DNA of 64,000 nucleotides, taken from the IMG/VR virus record IMGVR_UViG_3300042389_001027, positions 64,619-128,618 of that record; one strand, written 5' to 3'. Made by a program: the position numbers and the translations under genes. The notes under the pieces are model-generated. The model ran no database searches. It had not been told where the DNA came from and saw only the letters and a program-made list of their open reading frames with translations. Of the stretch, positions 25,837 through 53,975 are shown piece by piece. This DNA comes from a virus. How positions within the stretch are numbered: position 1 is the first letter of the stretch; the number at the start of each line of letters is the position of its first letter.

Positions 25837-26122
25837 ACACGACCCAAGTAAGTGGAGAATGGTTGACCCCAACTGGCGTATCCCAGTTGATGAGTCTGAA
25901 GTCTTTACTCCCTTGGAGCAGAACCGAGTTCCGATTAGCGGTCTTGTGCTCAAGATGTTGTGGGGGTTTATCACATTCGTTGGTCTTGTTGGTGCTGGGG
26001 TGTTTGGTATCGCTAATCTTGCTGGCGCAGAACAAATCGGTCTACTGGATTCTTATGGAATCTCACTGATTCTGATTCTGCTCCGCGCTTTGGATAAAAC
26101 GACATTCGGGAAACAATCCTAA
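25829..26122 (+). CDS. Small 2-TM membrane protein
   Basis: Two hydrophobic segments. Confidence 0.65.
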   Translation: MPEHDPSKWRMVDPNWRIPVDESEVFTPLEQNRVPISGLVLKMLWGFITFVGLVGAGVFGIANLAGAEQIGLLDSYGISLILILLRALDKTTFGKQS

Positions 26123-26160
26123 AAACAAAACAACCCCTCAGGCTTTCGCCATTGGGGTTG
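26121..26160 (-). terminator. Intrinsic terminator
   Basis: CAACCCC...GGGGTTG stem with a U-tract on the minus strand. Confidence 0.8.
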
Positions 26161-26165
26161 CTTCG

Positions 26166-26205
26166 GAGCAGTTGAGGGTGAAAGGAGTAAAGTTCCTCAC
26201 TTCTC
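26166..26205 (-). ncRNA. 3'-UTR hairpin with anti-Shine-Dalgarno loop (candidate sRNA)
   Basis: UGAGG/CCUCA stem with loop AACUUUACUCCUUUCAC, directly followed by the terminator. Confidence 0.5.
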
Positions 26206-26244: not shown

Positions 26245-27735
26245 TCAGAGGTTGCCCCCCTGAACCCGTCGCCATGTTTGCTTCCAACAGTTTGGATACC
26301 ACATGGCTGGTTTGATTCCTGACTTCAGTTGCTCAAGAGCCTTGATTCCTTCTTGTACATTCACACGAACGATTACCTTTTCTTTGCGAACCTGCTTGAT
26401 ACAGTCCATTGCGAGAAAGTCCTCGTAACCGTGGTTGATTCCATGAACAAGTCCGTCCGTGATGAACACGACTGGTGCGTTCTTGTGTTGCTTCTGCTTG
26501 ATTGCCCAACGCAGAGCCTCACCGTCAACACCGTTGCCACCGCTACGCTCGGGAACTGCGTCAACCATACGACCCTTTTCCGCAAGAATGAACAAGTTGT
26601 CCTTCTTGTTTTGTGAGTCTGTGGAATAAACCGCAACCGTTGCGCCGGGAGCCTGCTCCATGATTTTCACAAGGTCTGCCGTGGAGAGTCGCATAGAGCC
26701 TGAACCGTCAATGATGACGACTCCACCGTTGCCCTTCTTGCTTGCGTCAAAGATACGACGCTCAGGGTCAATCAACATTCGCCCGATACGACGAGGGTTG
26801 CGTCCCATGTCGGTTGCCCGACGCTTGCGACCCAATCCACCTTGTGCGTGACGAGTGAGTGGGAGTTTGCGAACCTTGAGTTCTGCCCAAGAGACCGCAC
26901 GACCACCTTCGCTCGCAGGATTGATTTCCTTGAGTTTGGTTTTGTCAACCTTTGGCTTCGCAGGTTGCTTGTCTGCTTTGCCAATCTTGTTTGGTTGAGT
27001 TTCGCCGTTTGCTTCTGGCTTTCCGCCACCGTCATCACTTGACTGACCTTCTTGACCTTCCTCACCTTCGTCGTTCTCGTCCTCGGGTGGGTTGGCGATT
27101 CGGTCAATCATCTCTGCGATTACTTCGGTGTGGGTGAATCCCAACGGTGCGAGACCGCTTTTTGCGTCAACCGCCGTGCTTGCGAGAGTCCGACGCTTGT
27201 CTGCCTTCGCAATCAGTTTCTCAACCTTCTTGGCAATGTCTCGGAGTGCGTTCGCCCATTCGGGATTTTCCCTGCGGATTCCCGTGATGAATGGCTTGAG
27301 TCCTGCGGAGTTGGAGAATCCAACGACCGTGTAGACCGCACTTGTCCAATCGCCTTGCTTGGCGATTCGTACGCCTGCCTCAAGTTCAGACCCGTCGCTG
27401 AGGTGAGTGAGAACATCAAACCCTGCCTTCTGAGCAAGGAAGTTCACTCGGGATTCCTCAACTGCTCGCAGAGCGATTTCACTCGCAATGTTTCGCTGAA
27501 TCCATGCTGAGAAGTCGTGCGCTGGTGAGACCTTTGCGTGAACCATCTCGTGAGCCCGAATACAACGCTCAGTCTCTCCGTCATTTACGGGGACGACCAT
27601 CACCTTGTCAACAATGTTGGTGTGAGGGAGTCCTCGGACTGGAGCACATGGGTCAACGACCCACGCCCCAATCTCTGTGTCCCTGCGCCCCAACATCTCG
27701 GGCATGGGTTGGTTGTTCATTGTCGCAGTCATCAC
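26245..27735 (-). CDS. HEXXH metallopeptidase-like plus VWA (CobT-like) protein
   Basis: AHEMVH, acidic linker, IDGSGSM MIDAS motif, FITDG. Confidence 0.85.
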   Translation of the reverse strand: MMTATMNNQPMPEMLGRRDTEIGAWVVDPCAPVRGLPHTNIVDKVMVVPVNDGETERCIRAHEMVHAKVSPAHDFSAWIQRNIASEIALRAVEESRVNFLAQKAGFDVLTHLSDGSELEAGVRIAKQGDWTSAVYTVVGFSNSAGLKPFITGIRRENPEWANALRDIAKKVEKLIAKADKRRTLASTAVDAKSGLAPLGFTHTEVIAEMIDRIANPPEDENDEGEEGQEGQSSDDGGGKPEANGETQPNKIGKADKQPAKPKVDKTKLKEINPASEGGRAVSWAELKVRKLPLTRHAQGGLGRKRRATDMGRNPRRIGRMLIDPERRIFDASKKGNGGVVIIDGSGSMRLSTADLVKIMEQAPGATVAVYSTDSQNKKDNLFILAEKGRMVDAVPERSGGNGVDGEALRWAIKQKQHKNAPVVFITDGLVHGINHGYEDFLAMDCIKQVRKEKVIVRVNVQEGIKALEQLKSGIKPAMWYPNCWKQTWRRVQGGNL

Positions 27736-41952: not shown

Positions 41953-42026
41953 CCTCCGTGATGCGTCTGGTTGACGCAGGGTGTCTTATACACACCTGTA
42001 GCAGGGTTCAATCCCCTGACGGAGGA
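41953..42026 (+). tRNA. tRNA-Ile(TAT), atypical
   Basis: Acceptor CCTCCGT/ACGGAGG; D arm TGCG/CGCA; anticodon arm GGTGT-CTTATAC-ACACC; T arm CAGGG-TTCAATC-CCCTG; G at position 8; no encoded CCA. Confidence 0.7.
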
Positions 42027-43044: not shown

Positions 43045-43611
43045 TTGCGACAACACATCTTCGCACCTCTTATTGTCCTATTCATCGGATTGTTCGGAAT
43101 AGAAGTTCTCGCTTCCGACTCCACGAGCATTACTACTAGCACTAGTCCCGCGACCATCGCACCTATCCCGACCAACCCGCCTCCGCCGAGAACCGTGGTC
43201 ATCACTCCGCCCCCGACTACAACAACTGTGGTTCTGACTGAAGAGCAAATCGCTGGTCTTCGTCAACTCCAAGTAGAAAAAGACAGAGAAACTTGGGGTA
43301 AATGTGGGGAATGGCACGACCTTGCTATTCAGGTTGGCTGGCCCGAAGCGCAGTGGAAGTACCTCCAACAAGTCATTTACCGTGAAAGCCGCTGCCAAGT
43401 AGATGCTTGGAACGGTGCCGATGCGGGGCTCCTACAAATCAACCAAATCCATCGGTCGTACATCGGTGAACTTGGCATGGGCGAGCATCCTGACGCAATG
43501 TTTGATGCAGAAAACAATCTGTGGTTCGGATTGTTGTTGTGGGAAGGAAGCGGAAAGAACTGTTGGAAGCATTGGCGTTTCAGCGGACAAACATTCGGGT
43601 GTGAGAAATGA
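43045..43611 (+). CDS. Secreted lytic transglycosylase (SLT-like)
   Basis: Signal/TM, P/T linker, RESRC...DAGLLQIN...DAENN. Confidence 0.85.
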   Translation: MRQHIFAPLIVLFIGLFGIEVLASDSTSITTSTSPATIAPIPTNPPPPRTVVITPPPTTTTVVLTEEQIAGLRQLQVEKDRETWGKCGEWHDLAIQVGWPEAQWKYLQQVIYRESRCQVDAWNGADAGLLQINQIHRSYIGELGMGEHPDAMFDAENNLWFGLLLWEGSGKNCWKHWRFSGQTFGCEK

Positions 43612-44744
43612 ACCCAATGTTTCTGTTCCGAGGAGTTATTGCAGTTTGGTTTACCACTTGGGGGCTCTTTGCGTTTGCGCCAAGCAAGAAAGAACCCGAA
43701 GCCGTCGTACGTGATTCTGTACGTGCGCCGATAACTGCGCCCGCACCAACAGTCCCGCCGACTACTCAGCCCGCTCCTGTGCAGCCAGATGCGCCATCAA
43801 CGCCATCTGCAACACCAATCCCTCTCGTTTCGTACTGGGAAAAGATTGCCAAATGTGAAACCAACAGCAACTGGCAACACAAAGGTGGTAACGGCGCAGG
43901 TCATTACTATGAGGGCGGTCTTGGTATTTATGATGGGACTTGGCTCGCATGGGGTGGCGATGAGTTTGCTCAACACGCATATGAAGCAACTAAGGAAGAG
44001 CAAATCATTGTTGCTAACCGAATCGCTTTGTTTGGTTACGAACAAGTTCGGACACGAGATGCCGAGTGGGCAAAAGTCAAGGGCGTACCAGCCACTTATC
44101 TGTACAAGAAGAGCCCCGTGGGTTTTAATGGGTGGGGATGCAACCGTCGCAACGGGGCTCCCGCGTTGTTTTACTATCCAGACCCAGAACGGTTCTTGAC
44201 GACGGCGTTCGCGTTCAGCCAACGCGGAGTTGAGGTTCATGATTTACAGCAACTTCTTGGTGTGAAAGCCGACGGCTGGTACGGAAAAGCAACCCGAAAC
44301 GCTCACTACAAGTATTTGGTTGAGGAAAATCTTCCAACTGATGTTGTCCCATCTATTCCAGCAAGCAGTCGTGCACCGAGAAGCGGTTACAAGTTTGTTG
44401 AGTGGAACGGAGATGTCGCAGAGATTCCTGTTGATGCGACTAAGCGATGCCCGCAGTACGAAGCAAAGTTTGCTCAGCACGGTCTTCCTGTGGAGATTTT
44501 CTCGTTCATTGCTTGGCGGGAGTCCCGTTGTAATCCGAAGTCGGAGAACTGGACTCTGAATGCGAATGGAACGAGCGACCACGGATTGGTGCAAATAAAC
44601 TCGTCGTGGAAAACGGTGACATCGCAAACTTGCGGTAGCAAGATGGGTGACCTAAGTGTGTTGCTTGATGTGAACTGCAACCTCAAGGTAGCCAAGAGGT
44701 TGTTAGAGATTTCTAGTAATCCGTTAGGTAACTGGAACCTTTAG
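43608..44744 (+). CDS. Rpf-like transglycosylase plus PG-binding plus SLT domain protein
   Basis: WEKIAKCETNSNW...GGL....TW...A..ATKEEQI..A (Rpf); LQQLLGVKADG.YG..T; RESRCNP...DHGLVQIN. Confidence 0.85.
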   Translation: MNPMFLFRGVIAVWFTTWGLFAFAPSKKEPEAVVRDSVRAPITAPAPTVPPTTQPAPVQPDAPSTPSATPIPLVSYWEKIAKCETNSNWQHKGGNGAGHYYEGGLGIYDGTWLAWGGDEFAQHAYEATKEEQIIVANRIALFGYEQVRTRDAEWAKVKGVPATYLYKKSPVGFNGWGCNRRNGAPALFYYPDPERFLTTAFAFSQRGVEVHDLQQLLGVKADGWYGKATRNAHYKYLVEENLPTDVVPSIPASSRAPRSGYKFVEWNGDVAEIPVDATKRCPQYEAKFAQHGLPVEIFSFIAWRESRCNPKSENWTLNANGTSDHGLVQINSSWKTVTSQTCGSKMGDLSVLLDVNCNLKVAKRLLEISSNPLGNWNL

Positions 44745-49272: not shown

Positions 49273-50430
49273 TCAGAACAGTTGAGGCTGATGGTCGGGT
49301 ATTTCTGCGATTCGCTTCTCCGCCAACTTCGCATACTCGGGATTTAACTCAAACCCGATGCCATCCCTGCCCAACCGCTTTGCGACCGCCAGCGTTGTCC
49401 CAGAGCCCGCAAACGGGTCAAGTACGACACACGGGGCTACTGGGGCATCGCATGAGCACGTTGCCTCCCAGCCGACGGTGAACGTTGGGACTGTGTGTTT
49501 GAGGGTTGAGCCATCTTCCAGACCAGTTCGTCGCATCCCTTGTTCGTTGATGTCGTACTGCCCAGCCCCCTGTGCTGACCATGCCTGAAGGATTGGTTCG
49601 CCCTTCTCTGTCAGTCGGACATACGGATTCCCGCACTTGGAACAGCAACCTTTCTCAGATGTGCCTGCAAGAATGCACGGCTCAACGAGGTCGTGAGGGA
49701 AAGTTGCGAAATGCGCCCCTTTGTACGGCTTCGTGTTGATTGTCCAGACGGACCTGCGGTTCTTCATCGCTCCAACGGTGTAGTTCGCTGAAGACGAGTT
49801 CGCCTCTGTCCCTCGCCGCGAGTCCCGTCGTGCGCCACGGTTGTCGCCCGCCCAGATGGCTGGCTCCTTGATGGCTTCCGCATCGTAGAAGTACCTGGGT
49901 TTCTTTGCGAGGAGGAAGATGTATTCGTGTGATGTGGTGCAACGGTCAGTCACGCTTGACGGCATCGCATTCGGTTTGTTCCAAATGATGTCTTGTCGCA
50001 AATACCAGCCAGCATCTTGGAGCGCAAATGCTACTCGCCATGGGATGCCCATGAGGTCTTTTGGTTTTAAACCGTCGGGTGTGGACTTATGGAGTGTCCC
50101 AATGATTGTTCCAAGTGAAGTTGCCTGTTTGGAGTTCGGGTCAACGTTCGCTGAGCCGTCTGCGTTCCGCCCTTTGCCTGAGCCCGCATAACTGTCTCCG
50201 AGATTCAGCCAGAGAGTCCCGTCGTCACGAAGTACACGATGTATCTCTTTGAATACCTCAAGCATCGCAGCGACGAACTCTTGAGGTGATGGCTCCTGTC
50301 CGATTTGTCCTTCGTGTCCGTAATCACGCAACCCGAAGTACGGGGGTGATGTGACGACGCAGTGTACGGATTTGTCAGGTAGATGCGAAAGTCCTGTTCG
50401 GCAATCGCTAACAATCAGTTGTGTGGTCAA
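49273..50430 (-). CDS. DNA N4-cytosine/N6-adenine methyltransferase (beta class)
   Basis: VTSPPY near the N-terminus; HFATFP; [10 protein letters not shown] near the C-terminus. Confidence 0.93.
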
Positions 50431-50436
50431 GTTTCT

Positions 50437-50775
50437 CTATTTTCTAGTGAACCACTTCAGTACTCGTGCCCGAAGCGAAGGATTAACAATGTCGTTTGCC
50501 TTCACCACATTAGCGGTTTTTTCAATGATTTCCTTGATTCCTTCAGGCACGCTTGCGGTGACTTCAACTTTGATGTCGGCTTTCGCAGTGGATGTCTTCG
50601 GCGACTGTGTTTTCACGACTGTCTTCGCTGCGGGACGCTTACGCGGCTCAGCACTCTTCTGCGGCACAACTTTCTTCGCGGATGCCTTCTTCGCACCCGC
50701 TTTCTTCGCAGCGGTTTTCTTCGCAACTGCTTTCTTCGCGGCTGGTTTCTTTTTGGGTTGCTTGCTTTCGTTCAT
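50437..50775 (-). CDS. Histone H1-like Lys/Ala-rich protein
   Basis: PAAKKAVAKKTAAKKAGAKKASAKK repeats. Confidence 0.7.
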   Translation of the reverse strand: MNESKQPKKKPAAKKAVAKKTAAKKAGAKKASAKKVVPQKSAEPRKRPAAKTVVKTQSPKTSTAKADIKVEVTASVPEGIKEIIEKTANVVKANDIVNPSLRARVLKWFTRK

Positions 50776-50850
50776 AACACGCAACAGTAGTACGAACTTC
50801 GTTTTCGTAAGAGCACTTTCGGTCACATTTTATGAGATAGGGTTACATTC

Positions 50851-51468
50851 ATGGATGCGTATCCAACAACTCTTGACAAAGTCGCCCTGGTAGTAGAAGC
50901 AGCGAAAGTCGCAAAATCAGATGCGGTAAAACTGAACGGAATCGGGGAGGACATCAACCTTAACTTGTTCGGGTGGCGGGACTCCTCGCTGGTCGTCATC
51001 GCTCAGATGCTTGACAGCAGTCAGATTCCAAAAGACGAACGGTTCGCCAAAGTCGTGAATGCGCTTTGTATTATCAGACAAGGTTGGCAAGTTGATGGAT
51101 TTACGATGGTTGCGGAAGCGTTTTGCTCACTTTTGCCGTCGGACACGAGGGGCAAAGACCTTGCGGCGCAGTTCGCCGAGAAGGATTCGCCTGTGATGGA
51201 GTGCCTCTCGTTCACGCACGTATCGCACAAAGATGCGCTCTTCGTAACAGTCCCGTACACGTGCGTTCCGCCTCGCACGGTCATATACAAGACCCCGCTG
51301 AAGTACTCTGGTTACGAGGGTGTGCTCCGTGATAGAAAGTATCCCGCTGCGATGGGGAAGGCTCTTGACCTCCCGATTAGCGAGTCGGTGGTTGAGGATG
51401 GCGATGTGTTTCATGCCGTTCTCGCTGAGGGGTTGGCTGACGAAGGGTTTGATGTTCATTATCTTTAG
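50851..51468 (+). CDS. Hypothetical protein (leaderless)
   Basis: TAGGGT-N7-ATG; 205 aa. Confidence 0.75.
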   Translation: MDAYPTTLDKVALVVEAAKVAKSDAVKLNGIGEDINLNLFGWRDSSLVVIAQMLDSSQIPKDERFAKVVNALCIIRQGWQVDGFTMVAEAFCSLLPSDTRGKDLAAQFAEKDSPVMECLSFTHVSHKDALFVTVPYTCVPPRTVIYKTPLKYSGYEGVLRDRKYPAAMGKALDLPISESVVEDGDVFHAVLAEGLADEGFDVHYL

Positions 51469-51472
51469 TTTC

Positions 51473-51502
51473 TTGACATAACACATCTGTTATGTGTATA
51501 AT
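51473..51502 (+). promoter_or_regulatory. Consensus promoter overlapped by a palindromic operator
   Basis: TTGACA-18-TATAAT; ACATAACA-CATC-TGTTATGT inverted repeat. Confidence 0.85.
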
Positions 51503-51507
51503 GTAAA

Positions 51508-51578
51508 AAGCAGGCGTCTCCTTTCCGCCTGTGCCAAGACCCCCTCCGACTTCATGTGGTGGGGGTTTTTGGTTTTTT
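51508..51578 (+). ncRNA. ~70-nt small RNA with an anti-Shine-Dalgarno loop
   Basis: Own promoter; CAGGCG-UCUCCUUUC-CGCCUG hairpin; ACCCCC/GGGGGU terminator plus U-tract; no ORF. Confidence 0.7.
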
Positions 51579-51622
51579 GACAATGCTTGACTTCATGAAC
51601 TAGATTGGGTAAGTTTAGATAC

Positions 51623-51919
51623 ATGAACTACTACACCAATAAACAGCACCCAAACTACTACTACAGCATTCGCACTTTCGTAAGGGTCACCTTTTGGGGA
51701 GGTGTGGCAGTCGGTCTCTTCGTGGGGGCAGGCGTACTCGGAGAAAAACTGGCAGACGACCCACGACCCAAATGTGATGTGACAGTCAATGTGGATTTCA
51801 CATGGGTCAATAACGGCACAACATGGGTTGACCTCACAATGTGCCAAAACCCGAACAACGGGATTTTCCTTGAGCCCGACGGAACATGGCGTTGGTACGA
51901 CCCAGAGTTGGATAACTGA
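51623..51919 (+). CDS. Single-TM hypothetical protein (leaderless)
   Basis: TTGACT...TAAGTT-N7-ATG; one hydrophobic helix. Confidence 0.7.
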   Translation: MNYYTNKQHPNYYYSIRTFVRVTFWGGVAVGLFVGAGVLGEKLADDPRPKCDVTVNVDFTWVNNGTTWVDLTMCQNPNNGIFLEPDGTWRWYDPELDN

Positions 51920-51933
51920 GTAGACTGCGAGAC

Positions 51934-52266
51934 ATGACAATGGACATGGACACATACCAGCAACAAGCATCCACCACAGCGAAGTACCCCGAAAGCACAG
52001 GCTTGATTTACTGCGTGCTCGGGCTCGCATCCGAAGCAGGTGAAGTCGCTGGCAAACTGAAGAAAGCCATCCGTGACGAGAACGGCGTCCTGTCGGAGTC
52101 CCGCAAGGAAGACTTGCTCGCGGAACTCGGCGATGTGCTCTGGTACTGCGCGATGACCGCGATGGAACTTGATGCGACGCTCTCCTCGGTCGCTGAGGCA
52201 AATCTCAACAAACTGTTTGACCGCAAAGACCGTGGTGTCATCGGGGGCGATGGGGACAAGCGGTGA
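51934..52266 (+). CDS. mazG: MazG-like nucleotide pyrophosphohydrolase
   Basis: LGLASEAGEVA.K.KK...ELGDVLWY...N..KL..R. Confidence 0.9.
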   Translation: MTMDMDTYQQQASTTAKYPESTGLIYCVLGLASEAGEVAGKLKKAIRDENGVLSESRKEDLLAELGDVLWYCAMTAMELDATLSSVAEANLNKLFDRKDRGVIGGDGDKR

Positions 52267-52323
52267 AAGCCTTCATTTCCGTCATTGCCGTGCTTGGCAT
52301 GGTTTTGCTGATTGGAATGCGAA

Positions 52324-52584
52324 ATGACTGACACAACTTGGACTTGGTTGCTGTTCGGAATGGAAATCATTGGTGTCACAGGAATGTGGTACGCAGGGAA
52401 AAAGATGTGGTGGGGCTGGCTCATCGTCATCCTCCACACCATCCCGTGGTTCATTTACGCCGTCACCCACAACAAGCCCGGATTCGTCGCAATGTCATTG
52501 ATGTGGTGGGCTGTTCACTGGCGGAACATGATTCGCTGGCGCAGGGAAGAGCGTTGGAGCAAGGCGGGGCTTGTGAGGGGATGA
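52324..52584 (+). CDS. Small PnuC-like membrane protein
   Basis: G.W..G.K.WWGW......W..YA...GF...RN...W pattern. Confidence 0.65.
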   Translation: MTDTTWTWLLFGMEIIGVTGMWYAGKKMWWGWLIVILHTIPWFIYAVTHNKPGFVAMSLMWWAVHWRNMIRWRREERWSKAGLVRG

Positions 52585-52588
52585 ACCC

Positions 52589-53098
52589 TCAGTCGCCCTC
52601 CTTCCACAACTTCTCCAACTCGTCGCGCTCCTCCGACTCCCGCTGGACGCGCTCCATGATTGCGTCAAACACACCACCCAACCCGTCGGGGTTATCCAAC
52701 TCCTCGCCCATGAGCCGCTGGATTTCCATGTGTGCGTCAAGTTCCTCGTCGGTCATAGCGTTCAGTTCACGCTCGTATGCGACTTGCTGACCTGCGAACA
52801 GGAACATCTCCAACTGTAGGTCGTCAATCAACTTGAACTCCGAAATCATGTTGTTCAGATAAACCGCTGACGGAATGCGTTCTCCCGTACGAATGCTCTG
52901 TGCGATGTTGTGCCAAAACAGTTCCGTCTTGTACTCGTACAGTCTCACTAGGTCATCGGGGATGAAGTCATCCTGCCAATCCCATCCGTCAAGGTCAAAG
53001 TCCTTAGCCGATGGCACTCGGTCAGGGAAACGCTTCATGGATTCTGCCCGTAGAGCCCCATGACCGTCGTCGCCTTCATTACTATCTATGTCAAACAT
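52589..53098 (-). CDS. Acidic hypothetical protein
   Basis: 169 aa; GGAAGG RBS. Confidence 0.7.
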   Translation of the reverse strand: MFDIDSNEGDDGHGALRAESMKRFPDRVPSAKDFDLDGWDWQDDFIPDDLVRLYEYKTELFWHNIAQSIRTGERIPSAVYLNNMISEFKLIDDLQLEMFLFAGQQVAYERELNAMTDEELDAHMEIQRLMGEELDNPDGLGGVFDAIMERVQRESEERDELEKLWKEGD

Positions 53099-53841: not shown

Positions 53842-53975
53842 GATTCCATTTATACAAACTCTTTCCTGTATTAGCAGAGGGGTCTCCTCCACTATAGACA
53901 ACATAACAGATGTGTTAGATGTTGTCAAGTGTTACGAATAAATATTTACCCGTGAGCACCCGTAAGCACTAAAGC

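What the first reader, a model, noticed from the sequence alone, without database searches (positions are those of the whole stretch)
51473..51578. Stand-alone ~70-nt sRNA displaying a 16S-like anti-Shine-Dalgarno loop
Seen: a consensus promoter (TTGACA-18-TATAAT) followed by hairpin CAGGCG-[UCUCCUUUC]-CGCCUG and an intrinsic terminator, with no ORF. Established: the actinobacterial 16S 3' tail reads CACCUCCUUUCU. The loop therefore copies it and is complementary to GAAAGGAG, the core of this phage's early RBS and of strong host RBSs. Inference: a trans-acting RNA that occludes SD sequences to shut off host or early phage translation.
Basis: partly seen in the sequence, partly recalled or inferred. 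Interest (0 to 1): 0.88.

Follow-up and report, generated by a model that had tools for sequence, protein, structure and literature searches.

The report
Phage small RNA mimicking ribosomal tail
An uncultured freshwater phage carries a tiny, protein-less RNA gene whose exposed loop copies the piece of the ribosome that grips messenger RNAs, so it probably masks the ribosome-binding sites of other messages, although no transcript or target has yet been shown.

Summary
At 51473-51578 lies the only perfect TTGACA-18-TATAAT promoter of this 128.6-kb phage genome. It is followed by a 7-bp hairpin with the loop UCUCCUUUC and an intrinsic terminator, with no credible ORF. Nine contigs carry the unit in three sequence variants. 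The 9-nt loop is identical in all three, while 3 of the 7 stem pairs changed on both sides and the terminators were rewritten. This makes it a selected RNA gene of about 70 nt, absent from Rfam.

The exact word GAAAGGAG is never an RBS here. The phage's early leader is CUACUAGAAAGG(A/U), giving 6-7 bp with the loop. The loop pairs with about a fifth of all start regions and picks out no single target.

New context:
- Both flanking genes are leaderless, with conserved TAnnnT 6-7 nt before the ATG.
- The promoter spacer holds a palindrome whose 17-mer recurs 2.4 kb away.
- The only other CUCCUUUC in the genome is also in a hairpin loop before a terminator.
- More distant relatives carry a larger RNA with a CCUUUC loop at the same spot.

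The best reading is an abundant SD-masking sRNA of the 6C/RsaE kind. No transcript evidence could be obtained. This scan has noted similar CU-loop phage RNAs on other DNA.

The parts
51473..51502 (+). Promoter P1 of the sRNA: TTGACA, 18-nt spacer, TATAAT
   Evidence: 12 of 12. It is the only 12/12 site in the whole genome. It is kept as TTGACA-18-TATACT in L006/L008. In L007/L243 it is replaced by TGTACA-17-TATACT with TG one base before the -10.
51476..51495 (.). Perfect inverted repeat ACATAACA-CATC-TGTTATGT inside the promoter spacer. It is operator-like.
   Evidence: Read. The 17-mer 51479-51495 recurs once in the genome, at 53901-53917 on the minus strand. The outer arms are kept in L006. 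Protein binding is inferred, not shown.
51509..51578 (+). Predicted sRNA of about 70 nt. The start is inferred at 7 nt after the -10 and the end at the U tract.
   Evidence: Fold. Covariance model R1 scores 95.2 bits here and 82-83 bits in the two other variants. No Rfam family matches. The 5' and 3' ends are not mapped.
51510..51532 (+). 5' hairpin with a 7-bp stem (6 Watson-Crick pairs plus an outer G-U)
   Evidence: Three of 7 pairs changed on both sides among 3 variants, and 95% of cells are paired.
51517..51525 (+). Apical loop UCUCCUUUC, the anti-Shine-Dalgarno mimic. It contains UCCUU.
   Evidence: Identical in all 9 contigs that hold the unit (window, L002-L008, L243). It is unpaired in the MFE and centroid structures.
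51533..51578 (+). Intrinsic terminator: a C-rich/G-rich hairpin plus UUUUUGGUUUUUU
   Evidence: A different GC-rich hairpin plus a T-rich tail stands at the same place in L006 and L007.
51577..51615 (+). Two overlapping promoters for the next gene: TTGACA-18-TAGATT and TTGACT-17-TAAGTT. The second places the start of transcription on the ATG.
   Evidence: (10 of 12) and direct reading. Both the -35 boxes and the TAnnnT boxes are kept in L006 and L007 while the spacers differ.
51623..51919 (+). Downstream 98-aa gene with one predicted membrane helix. It has no SD and is a leaderless candidate (TAAGTT, 7 nt, ATG).
   Evidence: No Pfam, PHROG or PADLOC family matches.
50851..51468 (+). Upstream 205-aa gene of unknown function. 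It is a leaderless candidate (TAGGGT 50838-50843, 7 nt, ATG). Its transcript would end at the sRNA's terminator.
   Evidence: TAnnnT lies 6-7 nt before the ATG in the window, L004, L006, L007, L009, L017, L018 and L020. Fold is confident (pLDDT 92.4) but has no clear relative.
26121..26205 (-). Second module of the same layout: a hairpin with a 17-nt loop containing CUCCUUUC, directly followed by a terminator, in the 3' UTR of the VWA gene (26245-27735, minus)
   Evidence: z = -3.4. A relative (G003, VWA protein 56% identical) has a hairpin loop containing UCUCCUUUC about 85 nt after its VWA gene.
53901..53917 (-). Second copy of the 17-mer from the P1 spacer, inside a longer imperfect inverted repeat and next to TATAGT
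   Evidence: Its function was not examined.

Best explanation
This is a real, independently transcribed phage gene for a small non-coding RNA of about 70 nt. Host sigma-70-type RNA polymerase would fire from the strongest-looking promoter in the genome. The transcript folds at once into a 5' hairpin and stops at an intrinsic terminator, giving a short, nuclease-resistant and probably very abundant RNA.

Its only conserved single-stranded element is the 9-nt loop UCUCCUUUC, which copies the mRNA-binding 3' tail of 16S rRNA. I propose that the loop base-pairs with purine-rich Shine-Dalgarno regions of the GAAAGGAG/GGAG(G/A) kind and keeps 30S subunits off them. The candidate targets are host messages and the phage's own early CUAGAAAGG(A/U)-led messages. 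Messages without an SD are exempt, including the two leaderless genes that flank the RNA.

The palindrome in the promoter spacer suggests that a DNA-binding protein switches the RNA off or on during infection.

Shown: gene anatomy, fold, loop invariance with stem covariation, complementarity, and the leaderless context. Inferred: transcription, abundance, pairing in vivo, repression and timing.
For: 1. Anatomy. This is the only 12/12 promoter in 128.6 kb. The fold is stable with an open loop. A terminator follows, and there is no credible ORF (conservation of the in-transcript frames read by eye).

2. Selection on the RNA. There are three sequence variants in 9 contigs, with neighbour-protein identities of 99-100, 93-94 and 77%. 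The loop is 9/9 identical. Three of 7 stem pairs changed on both sides, and 10 of 500 shuffles reach the observed covariation. The terminators differ in sequence but are kept as hairpin plus T tract.

3. A promoter-like -10 is kept at a fixed distance in all variants, so that the hairpin begins at or within a few nt of the 5' end.

4. Complementarity. Of the 31 other sites in the genome with 7 or more perfect complementary bases, 17 lie 2-9 nt before a start codon of an ORF of 30 aa or more. The loop pairs at <= -8 kcal/mol with 33 of 157 start regions against 5 of 157 mid-gene windows. Twenty-six of 157 predicted genes use an RBS from the (A)GAAAGGA(G) end of the tail complement. CTAGAAAGG occurs 12 times, against 0 for the reversed control.

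5. Recurrence. The only other CUCCUUUC in the genome is again in a hairpin loop before a terminator, and a relative keeps it in the same place. A larger RNA at the syntenic spot in relatives whose neighbour protein is 42-46% identical has a hairpin whose loop always ends in CCUUUC while its stem covaries.

6. Leaderless neighbours. TAnnnT lies 6-7 nt before the ATG of the 205-aa gene in all 8 contigs where its true ATG was inspected, and before the 98-aa gene in all 3 variants. Genome-wide, 11 of 157 predicted starts show this against 13 of 929 internal ATG/GTG.

7. Precedent. Actinobacterial 6C sRNA represses genes by pairing C-rich loops with G-rich RBSs without a chaperone (PMC6486639, abstract and passages).
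Against: - No transcript evidence exists. The contigs of the three RNA-labelled runs (one labelled so only by a guess) covered 50400-51238 and 52165-52520 but not the locus, which is uninformative either way.
- Only three distinct variants exist, so covariation statistics are weak (n = 3).
- Pairing with the phage's commonest early leader, GAAAGGU, is only 6 bp.
- Four of 30 shuffled loops of the same composition pair with as many start regions as the real loop. The exact sequence is therefore not explained by RBS pairing alone, and no specific target stands out.
- The loop would also pair with the GGAGG-type RBSs of the phage's own structural genes. A global blocker would hurt the phage unless it is timed.
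- A stoichiometric blocker must outnumber its targets, and abundance is only inferred from promoter quality.
- The sRNA promoter resembles the phage's ACACCCC-type promoters, so the RNA may be made together with its proposed early targets.
- The host, and hence its 16S tail, is unknown.
Confidence: 0.5

Rival explanations
1. Decoy of the 16S 3' tail for a protein. The loop is kept identical to the ribosomal tail because a protein that recognises that tail binds or cuts the RNA instead. The protein could be an anti-SD-directed ribonuclease toxin of the host (MazF-mt3, MazF-mt11 or RelE1 type) or another tail-binding factor. The abundant RNA would soak up the toxin and protect ribosomes, or tune a switch to leaderless translation.
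For: - The loop contains UCCUU, the cleavage word reported for MazF-mt3, which cuts the anti-SD of mycobacterial 16S rRNA (review PMC5408214, passages).
- Other actinobacterial toxins also remove the anti-SD (PMC12274833 abstract and passages; PMC12620021 abstract).
- The exact loop sequence is conserved beyond what RBS pairing needs (shuffles).
- The flanking genes are leaderless and so would keep being translated if anti-SD function were lost.
- The motif is displayed single-stranded, as MazF enzymes require (PMC12274833 abstract).
Against: - The loop lacks the CACCU word of MazF-mt11, and RelE1 cuts upstream of the anti-SD, so only one of the three known specificities fits.
- The host is unknown, and no such toxin is known for it.
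- The phage itself encodes no PemK/MazF-family protein and no S21.
- A single 9-nt loop is a poor sponge unless it is extremely abundant.
- There is no direct evidence of any protein partner.
Confidence: 0.15
2. 3'-UTR element. The hairpin and terminator mainly serve as the 3' end of the upstream 205-aa gene's mRNA, for stability, processing, or pairing back to a 5' region. The promoter in front adds little. The pyrimidine loop would then be a cis element like the anti-SD motif in the icaR 3' UTR of Staphylococcus aureus.
For: - The upstream gene has no terminator of its own before 51533, so its mRNA must carry the hairpin.
- The second CUCCUUUC module at 26121-26205 (minus) sits in a 3' UTR, and I saw no promoter in front of it.
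- The layout is hairpin then terminator in both.
Against: - The upstream gene is leaderless and has no SD for the loop to mask.
- A promoter is kept in all three variants, with the -10 at a fixed distance from the hairpin, even where the -35 was replaced by an extended -10.
- This is the best promoter in the genome.
- The two roles are not exclusive.
Confidence: 0.15
3. Ligand for a phage protein. The loop is the binding site of a phage-encoded RNA-binding protein, for instance the conserved 205-aa neighbour. The RNA would act as a scaffold, antitoxin-like partner or regulator of that protein rather than by base pairing.
For: - In two subclades the 205-aa gene is directly followed by an RNA gene with a CCUUUC-ending loop, although the two RNAs are otherwise different.
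- The protein is widespread in uncultured phages and has no known function.
- Weak structural rows to RelE/YoeB/ParE-type folds appear at Z 4.0-4.8.
Against: - The fold matches are below the level that means anything. The best Z is 6.1, to pilins, and the tool's own note says Z under 8 is common.
- Relatives whose protein is 46-50% identical (L009-L016) keep the protein but have no such RNA next to it.
- Model R1 finds none elsewhere in G001 or G003.
- The second module is next to an unrelated gene.
Confidence: 0.08
4. Promoter-proximal terminated transcript of an antitermination switch (lambda PR'-tR' / 6S-StxS or HK022 put type). The short RNA would be a by-product, and a phage factor or the hairpin itself would let polymerase read through into the downstream genes.
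For: A strong promoter followed within 70 nt by a terminator is the classic layout (recalled knowledge). The operator-like palindrome implies regulation.
Against: - The downstream genes have their own conserved promoters immediately after the terminator.
- Only about 1 kb of plus-strand genes (three ORFs to 52584) follows before the minus-strand ORF at 52589-53098.
- This model does not explain an invariant loop with free stems.
Confidence: 0.04

Closest known systems
6C sRNA of Actinobacteria (Rfam 6C family; M. tuberculosis B11/6C, PMC6486639)
   Same: Both are short, highly structured sRNAs. The pyrimidine-rich hairpin loops are the functional seed. They pair with purine/G-rich RBS regions and repress without Hfq or ProQ (abstract and passages). 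The likely host phylum is the same.
   Different: 6C is chromosomal and has several loops with C runs. Here there is one loop, U/C-mixed, that reproduces the 16S tail itself. The RNA is phage-borne. No Rfam family matches at E <= 10 in 50500-52500.
C-rich-loop SD-blocking sRNAs of Firmicutes (S. aureus RNAIII hairpins, RsaE/RoxS); recalled, not read here
   Same: Both have UCCC/CU-rich apical loops that kiss SD sequences of several mRNAs, with a terminator hairpin at the 3' end.
   Different: The sequence and size differ, and those are host regulators with defined regulons. This RNA is a minimal one-seed molecule from a phage, and no target set has been identified.
icaR 3'UTR anti-SD motif of S. 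aureus
   Same: An anti-SD-like pyrimidine motif is displayed in a 3' UTR. This is relevant to the second module at 26121-26205 and to the read-through form of the 205-aa mRNA.
   Different: icaR pairs with its own SD. Here the upstream gene is leaderless, so no cis SD exists.
T4 RegB endoribonuclease / RegA repressor (recalled)
   Same: The proposed outcome is the same: a phage product that silences a class of early messages through their ribosome-binding sites.
   Different: Those are proteins acting by cleavage or binding. Here the proposed effector is an RNA acting by pairing.
Lambda-type short terminated transcripts (oop, 6S RNA from PR'; StxS of Stx phages); recalled
   Same: Both have a strong phage promoter, a transcript of tens of nucleotides ending at an intrinsic terminator, and possible trans activity of the short RNA.
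   Different: No late operon depends on read-through here, and downstream genes have their own promoters. The sequences are unrelated.

Membership tests
Independently transcribed, intrinsically terminated bacterial/phage sRNA gene (generic class) | Own promoter directly upstream | tested here: met
   12/12 sigma-70-type site, unique in the genome. A -10 is kept at the same distance in all 3 variants. Activity was not measured.
Independently transcribed, intrinsically terminated bacterial/phage sRNA gene (generic class) | Intrinsic terminator at the 3' end and no conserved ORF | tested here: met
Independently transcribed, intrinsically terminated bacterial/phage sRNA gene (generic class) | Structure conserved with compensatory changes | tested here: met
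   In helix 1, 3 of 7 pairs changed on both sides and 95% of cells are paired. Slid controls fall to 47-67%. There are only 3 distinct sequences.
Independently transcribed, intrinsically terminated bacterial/phage sRNA gene (generic class) | A discrete transcript is detected | tested here: inconclusive
   The contigs of three RNA-labelled runs did not cover 51239-52164. Contigs cannot show ends or absence.
SD-occluding trans-acting sRNA (6C / RsaE / RNAIII kind) | Accessible pyrimidine seed complementary to SD regions of mRNAs | tested here: met
   The loop is unpaired. It pairs at <= -8 kcal/mol with 33 of 157 start regions against 5 of 157 controls. Seventeen of 31 perfect 7-9-mers lie just before starts.
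SD-occluding trans-acting sRNA (6C / RsaE / RNAIII kind) | Seed-dependent repression of translation of defined targets | not testable with these tools
   This needs reporters or toeprinting. In silico, no single target stands out, and shuffled loops reach the same count in 4 of 30 trials.
6C RNA family (Rfam) | Match to the family covariance model | tested here: not met
   cmscan of 50500-52500 against all 4227 Rfam families at E <= 10 returned only a chance 5.8S row.
6C RNA family (Rfam) | Two or more hairpin loops with runs of C | tested here: not met
   There is one seed loop, UCUCCUUUC. The second hairpin is the terminator. The family definition is recalled and supported by PMC6486639 passages.
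Type III toxin-antitoxin RNA (ToxI-like) | Tandem repeats of the antitoxin RNA followed by an endoribonuclease toxin gene | tested here: not met
   No tandem repeat lies at the locus. The downstream 98-aa protein has no PADLOC or Pfam match. The family definition is recalled.
Q / put-type antitermination leader | Downstream operon that depends on read-through of the promoter-proximal terminator | tested here: not met
   Conserved promoters stand directly after the terminator. Only about 1 kb of same-strand genes (three ORFs) follows.
tRNA / tmRNA | Recognised by ARAGORN or the Rfam tRNA/tmRNA models | tested here: not met
   The window's tRNAs are only at 41953 and 56737. Rfam gives nothing at the locus.

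The most novel reading that the evidence does not exclude
The RNA is a molecular decoy of the ribosome's anti-Shine-Dalgarno tail. It is produced in bulk by the phage to absorb host anti-SD-cutting toxins (MazF-mt3 or RelE1 kind) triggered by infection, or to tip the cell towards SD-independent translation. The leaderless gene cluster around it, and the CCUUUC-loop RNAs at the same slot in relatives, would then form a phage module that manages the SD-led versus leaderless split of actinobacterial translation.
Probability: 0.12. Interest if true: 0.85.

Novelty: new member of a known kind. Interest (0 to 1): 0.55.

Why it matters
Regulatory RNAs of phages that infect Actinobacteria, and of uncultured freshwater phages in general, are almost unknown. 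My three full-text searches listed no paper whose title or abstract describes a phage RNA that mimics the anti-SD tail.

This unit is about as small as a regulatory RNA gene can be: one seed loop plus a terminator. It is conserved under clear selection, and it sits between leaderless genes. That makes it a clean system for asking whether a phage can bias translation between SD-led and leaderless messages, which is an open question in actinobacterial biology.

If it only damps a few early genes, it is one more pyrimidine-loop sRNA. If it acts globally or as a toxin decoy, it would be a new route of host take-over or counter-defence.

Tried and rejected
Transcript evidence. The look-up of sequencing runs gave three runs with small shares (0.18, 0.07, 0.05), two on record as RNA and one an RNA guess. 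When laid, their contigs covered only 50400-51238 and 52165-52520, at depth 2-4 apart from one short higher-depth piece with unlike flanks. Nothing covered the sRNA. Contigs cannot show absence, so this says nothing.

Close relatives in public phage records. blastn 'distant' of 51300-51800 against 50,697 phage records gave no match. The exact 21-nt hairpin gave 0 hits in IMG/VR. The 205-aa protein alone found no relative in IMG/VR.

None of those fetched had the RNA upstream.

Distant relatives. CTCCTTTC in five large related records gave 7 sites. Only the one after the G003 VWA gene is a loop module. Those at G001:1223 and G003:24840 follow a GC hairpin and may be just a pyrimidine terminator tail, so I do not count them. 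Model R1 found no further member in 99 sources or in G001-G003, only weak rows at E 0.07-1.3.

A general 'pyrimidine-loop hairpin before every terminator' rule is rejected. Among 48 crude terminator calls, 7 rows were flagged for some pyrimidine word in an upstream loop, but only the sRNA row carries CUCCUUUC. The crude scan missed the site-2 terminator.

Function of the 205-aa neighbour:
- The first fold, with 11 sequences, was useless (pLDDT 41.7).
- The second fold was good (pLDDT 92.4).
- Foldseek against PDB found nothing at E <= 1e-3.
- BFVD returned only uncharacterised phage proteins.
- VIA wide gave a best Z of 6.1 to pilins, with RelE-like rows at Z 4.0-4.8, all inconclusive.
- A PDB profile search gave 0 hits.
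- Pfam, PHROGs and PADLOC gave none.

Host identification. A genome-contig scan with the CoA-transferase found no relative. An actinobacterial host rests only on the Rpf-type domain PF06737, on the best helicase hits being Arthrobacter and Gordonia phages at 32-37% identity, and on the leaderless promoters.

Phage-encoded S21 or MazF/PemK: none found. There is no homologue of the relatives' larger RNA in this window, and no tandem repeats at the locus.

The supplements of the papers were not opened. Supplementary tables of PMC6107228 may list actinobacterial tails and SD motifs that bear on the 16S claim.
Full report
**Where the window lies.** The window is the second half (bases 64619-128618) of a 128,618-bp virus record with direct terminal repeats. 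It has about 50% G+C and two tRNA genes. No public phage record is similar at the DNA level. Its helicase is at best 32-37% identical to helicases of Arthrobacter and Gordonia phages. An Rpf-type transglycosylase domain (PF06737) and leaderless-type promoters (below) point to an actinobacterial host, but the host is not known.

**The observation.**
- TTGACA (51473-51478), an 18-nt spacer and TATAAT (51497-51502) score 12 of 12.
- My scan of the whole genome, both strands, allowing one mismatch, found six sites, and this is the only perfect one.
- Seven to eight bases after the -10 begins a hairpin: G-CAGGCG / loop UCUCCUUUC (51517-51525) / CGCCUG-U.
- It is followed directly by a GC-rich hairpin and UUUUUGGUUUUUU (51533-51578).
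- The 76-nt stretch folds at -33 kcal/mol, z = -4.1, and none of 200 shuffles folds as well. The loop is open in both the MFE and the centroid structure.
- There is no credible ORF, and no Rfam family matches even at E <= 10.
- The loop shares CUCCUUUC with the 16S tail printed for B. subtilis, GAUCACCUCCUUUCU (PMC6107228, passages). The 'terminal 11 nts' removed by a C^ACCU cut in mycobacteria (PMC12274833) fit the same tail by my arithmetic.

**Is it a selected RNA?** The upstream 205-aa protein has homologues. This gave 63 and 42 loci.
- Seven metagenome contigs, and one IMG/VR contig found later by a gapped pattern, carry the unit. Together with the window they give three sequence variants.
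- In L006/L008 (protein 93-94% identical) the stem is AGUAAGCG/CGCUUACU. In L007/L243 (77%) it is UAGCGAGGG/CCCCUGCUA. In both, the loop is UCUCCUUUC, unchanged.
- On the alignment, 3 of the 7 pairs of the first helix changed on both sides and 95% of cells pair. Sliding the partner by 1-3 columns drops pairing to 47-67%. Ten of 500 shuffles reach the observed covariation. With three sequences this is suggestive rather than strong.
- The terminators differ in sequence, but each is a C-rich/G-rich hairpin with a T-rich tail. The linker and the 5' tail are not conserved.
- A -10 box is kept at the same distance from the hairpin in all variants. L007 has lost the -35 consensus and has TG one base before TATACT.
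- A covariance model of the three variants finds the RNA only in these contigs among 99 sources. It finds the RNA once in the own genome and not in four large, more distant relatives.

I conclude that this is a real RNA gene restricted to a narrow clade, and that its loop sequence is what selection holds on to.

**What the loop can pair with.** A crude gene call (157 genes) shows two RBS styles.
- About 26 genes, mostly small early-region genes at window 22.6-45.5 kb, use the distal end of the tail complement, typically inside the leader CUACUAGAAAGG(A/U). CTAGAAAGG occurs 12 times against 0 for the reversed control, and 0 times in four relatives.
- Structural and replication genes use GGAGG-type sites.

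The loop offers 6 bp to GAAAGGU, 7 to GAAAGGA and 7-8 to AAAGGAG(A). Besides the RNA's own complement, the genome has 31 perfect sites of 7-9 nt, and 17 of these lie 2-9 nt before an ORF start. By duplex energy the loop binds 33 of 157 start regions at <= -8 kcal/mol, against 5 of 157 mid-gene windows. However, loops of the same composition in shuffled order reach the real loop's count in 4 of 30 trials. The loop is therefore a generic anti-SD with no single outstanding target. RBS pairing alone does not explain why exactly the 16S word is kept.

**Context that bears on function.**

1. *Leaderless neighbours.* The next gene (51623-51919, 98 aa, one membrane helix) has no SD. TTGACT, 17 nt, TAAGTT and 7 nt precede its ATG. 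The boxes and distances are kept in L006 and L007 while the spacers vary. The upstream 205-aa gene has TAGGGT 7 nt before its ATG, and a TAnnnT box 6-7 nt before the ATG is present in all 8 contigs where I inspected its true start, down to 43% protein identity. The divergent histone-like gene has TACTGT 8 nt before its ATG. Genome-wide, 11 of 157 predicted starts have such a box against 13 of 929 internal ATG/GTG. The RNA thus sits inside a small cluster of SD-independent genes.

2. *Operator-like palindrome.* The promoter spacer is a perfect palindrome, ACATAACA-CATC-TGTTATGT (51476-51495). This suggests an operator and hence timed expression.

3. *A second module.* The only other CUCCUUUC in the genome lies in the 17-nt loop of a hairpin that is directly followed by a terminator, 40 nt after the stop of the VWA gene on the minus strand (26121-26205). 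A relative whose VWA protein is 56% identical has UCUCCUUUC in a hairpin loop about 85 nt after its VWA gene, again before a GC-rich hairpin.

4. *A larger RNA at the same slot.* In relatives whose 205-aa protein is 42-46% identical, the same slot holds a different RNA of about 120 nt.
   - It has a 7-bp terminal stem and a 3' ACC, and is followed by tRNA genes.
   - Its first hairpin has a covarying stem and a loop that always ends in CCUUUC.
   - It is not in Rfam and is not a tRNA or tmRNA by ARAGORN.
   - Closer relatives at 46-50% (L009-L016) have no RNA there.

**Mechanism.** The most economical reading is a small trans-acting RNA of the pyrimidine-loop kind.
- It is made from a very strong, probably regulated promoter.
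- It is stabilised by a 5' hairpin and a terminator.
- Its loop masks SD regions.

Actinobacterial 6C sRNA works this way without a chaperone (PMC6486639). The leaderless neighbours would be exempt.

There are weaknesses: no transcript data, only short pairing with the phage's commonest early leader, possible self-harm to GGAGG-led late genes, and the need for high abundance. I put this reading at 0.5.

**Rival readings.** A decoy reading explains the exact identity to the 16S tail better, and I put it at 0.15. The loop contains UCCUU, the MazF-mt3 word that is cut in the mycobacterial anti-SD (PMC5408214). Two further toxin families remove the anti-SD in mycobacteria. But nothing links this phage or its unknown host to such toxins, and the phage has no PemK/MazF or S21 gene.

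A pure 3'-UTR role (0.15), a ligand for the 205-aa neighbour (0.08) and an antitermination leader (0.04) are less well supported. The neighbour's fold is confident (pLDDT 92.4) but matches nothing clearly.

**Comparison and novelty.** The RNA works like 6C, RsaE/RoxS or the RNAIII hairpins but is not a member of any catalogued family. It is phage-borne, minimal, and reproduces the ribosomal tail itself. Three full-text searches listed no paper whose title or abstract describes a phage RNA as an anti-SD mimic. These searches cover open-access papers and bioRxiv only. Earlier reports of this scan describe similar CU-loop RNAs in other phages. I did not test those.

I file it as a new member of a known kind, of moderate interest. 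The interest would be much higher if the leaderless-switch or decoy reading proved true.

Noticed in passing
L017:3634-3757, L018:3301-3422, L020:3643-3762, L028:3643-3768, L075-L078 (same slot after the 205-aa gene): An uncatalogued structured RNA of about 120 nt. It has a 7-bp terminal stem GACUGAC/GUCAGUC followed by ACC, a hairpin whose loop ends in CCUUUC, and a long GGGUGGCC/GGCCACCC helix enclosing two hairpins. Six pairs show compensatory changes. It has its own -10 box overlapping the stop codon of the upstream gene, and tRNA genes follow (3 nt later in L018). It is not in Rfam and is not a tRNA or tmRNA by ARAGORN.
   Followed up: partly
window 26121-26205 (minus strand): A second anti-SD-loop hairpin plus terminator in the 3' UTR of the VWA gene. 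It is conserved in position in relative G003 (L228/L233).
   Followed up: partly
window 53880-53930 (minus strand): The 17-mer of the sRNA promoter spacer recurs inside a longer imperfect inverted repeat between TTGACA and TATAGT, which are 26 nt apart. It is followed by a purine-rich start (GGAGGAGA...) and a tract of GAUAC repeats. This may be a co-regulated second unit.
   Followed up: partly
whole genome; window 25202, 31625, 41545, 44988, 54363: A promoter family TTGACA-N17-TATA(C/G)T whose spacers share ACACCCC. It is typically followed by short leaders with CUACUAGAAAGG. CTAGAAAGG occurs 12 times in this genome and not at all in four related large records.
   Followed up: partly
window 50437-51919: Three adjacent genes (histone H1-like, the 205-aa protein and the 98-aa membrane protein) all have a TAnnnT box 6-8 nt before the ATG and no SD. 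This is a cluster of leaderless candidates. Eleven of 157 predicted starts genome-wide show the pattern.
   Followed up: partly
window 50851-51468: The 205-aa protein is widespread in uncultured freshwater and marine phages (63 metagenome and 42 IMG/VR loci). It folds confidently (pLDDT 92.4) into a helix-backed beta sheet with no clear solved relative. BFVD relatives include an uncharacterised protein of Mycobacterium phage Catdawg.
   Followed up: yes
I only read the sequence.
   Followed up: no
window 43608-44744: A protein with an Rpf-type transglycosylase domain (PF06737) plus SLT domains, next to a second SLT protein. This is a hint of an actinobacterial host.
   Followed up: partly
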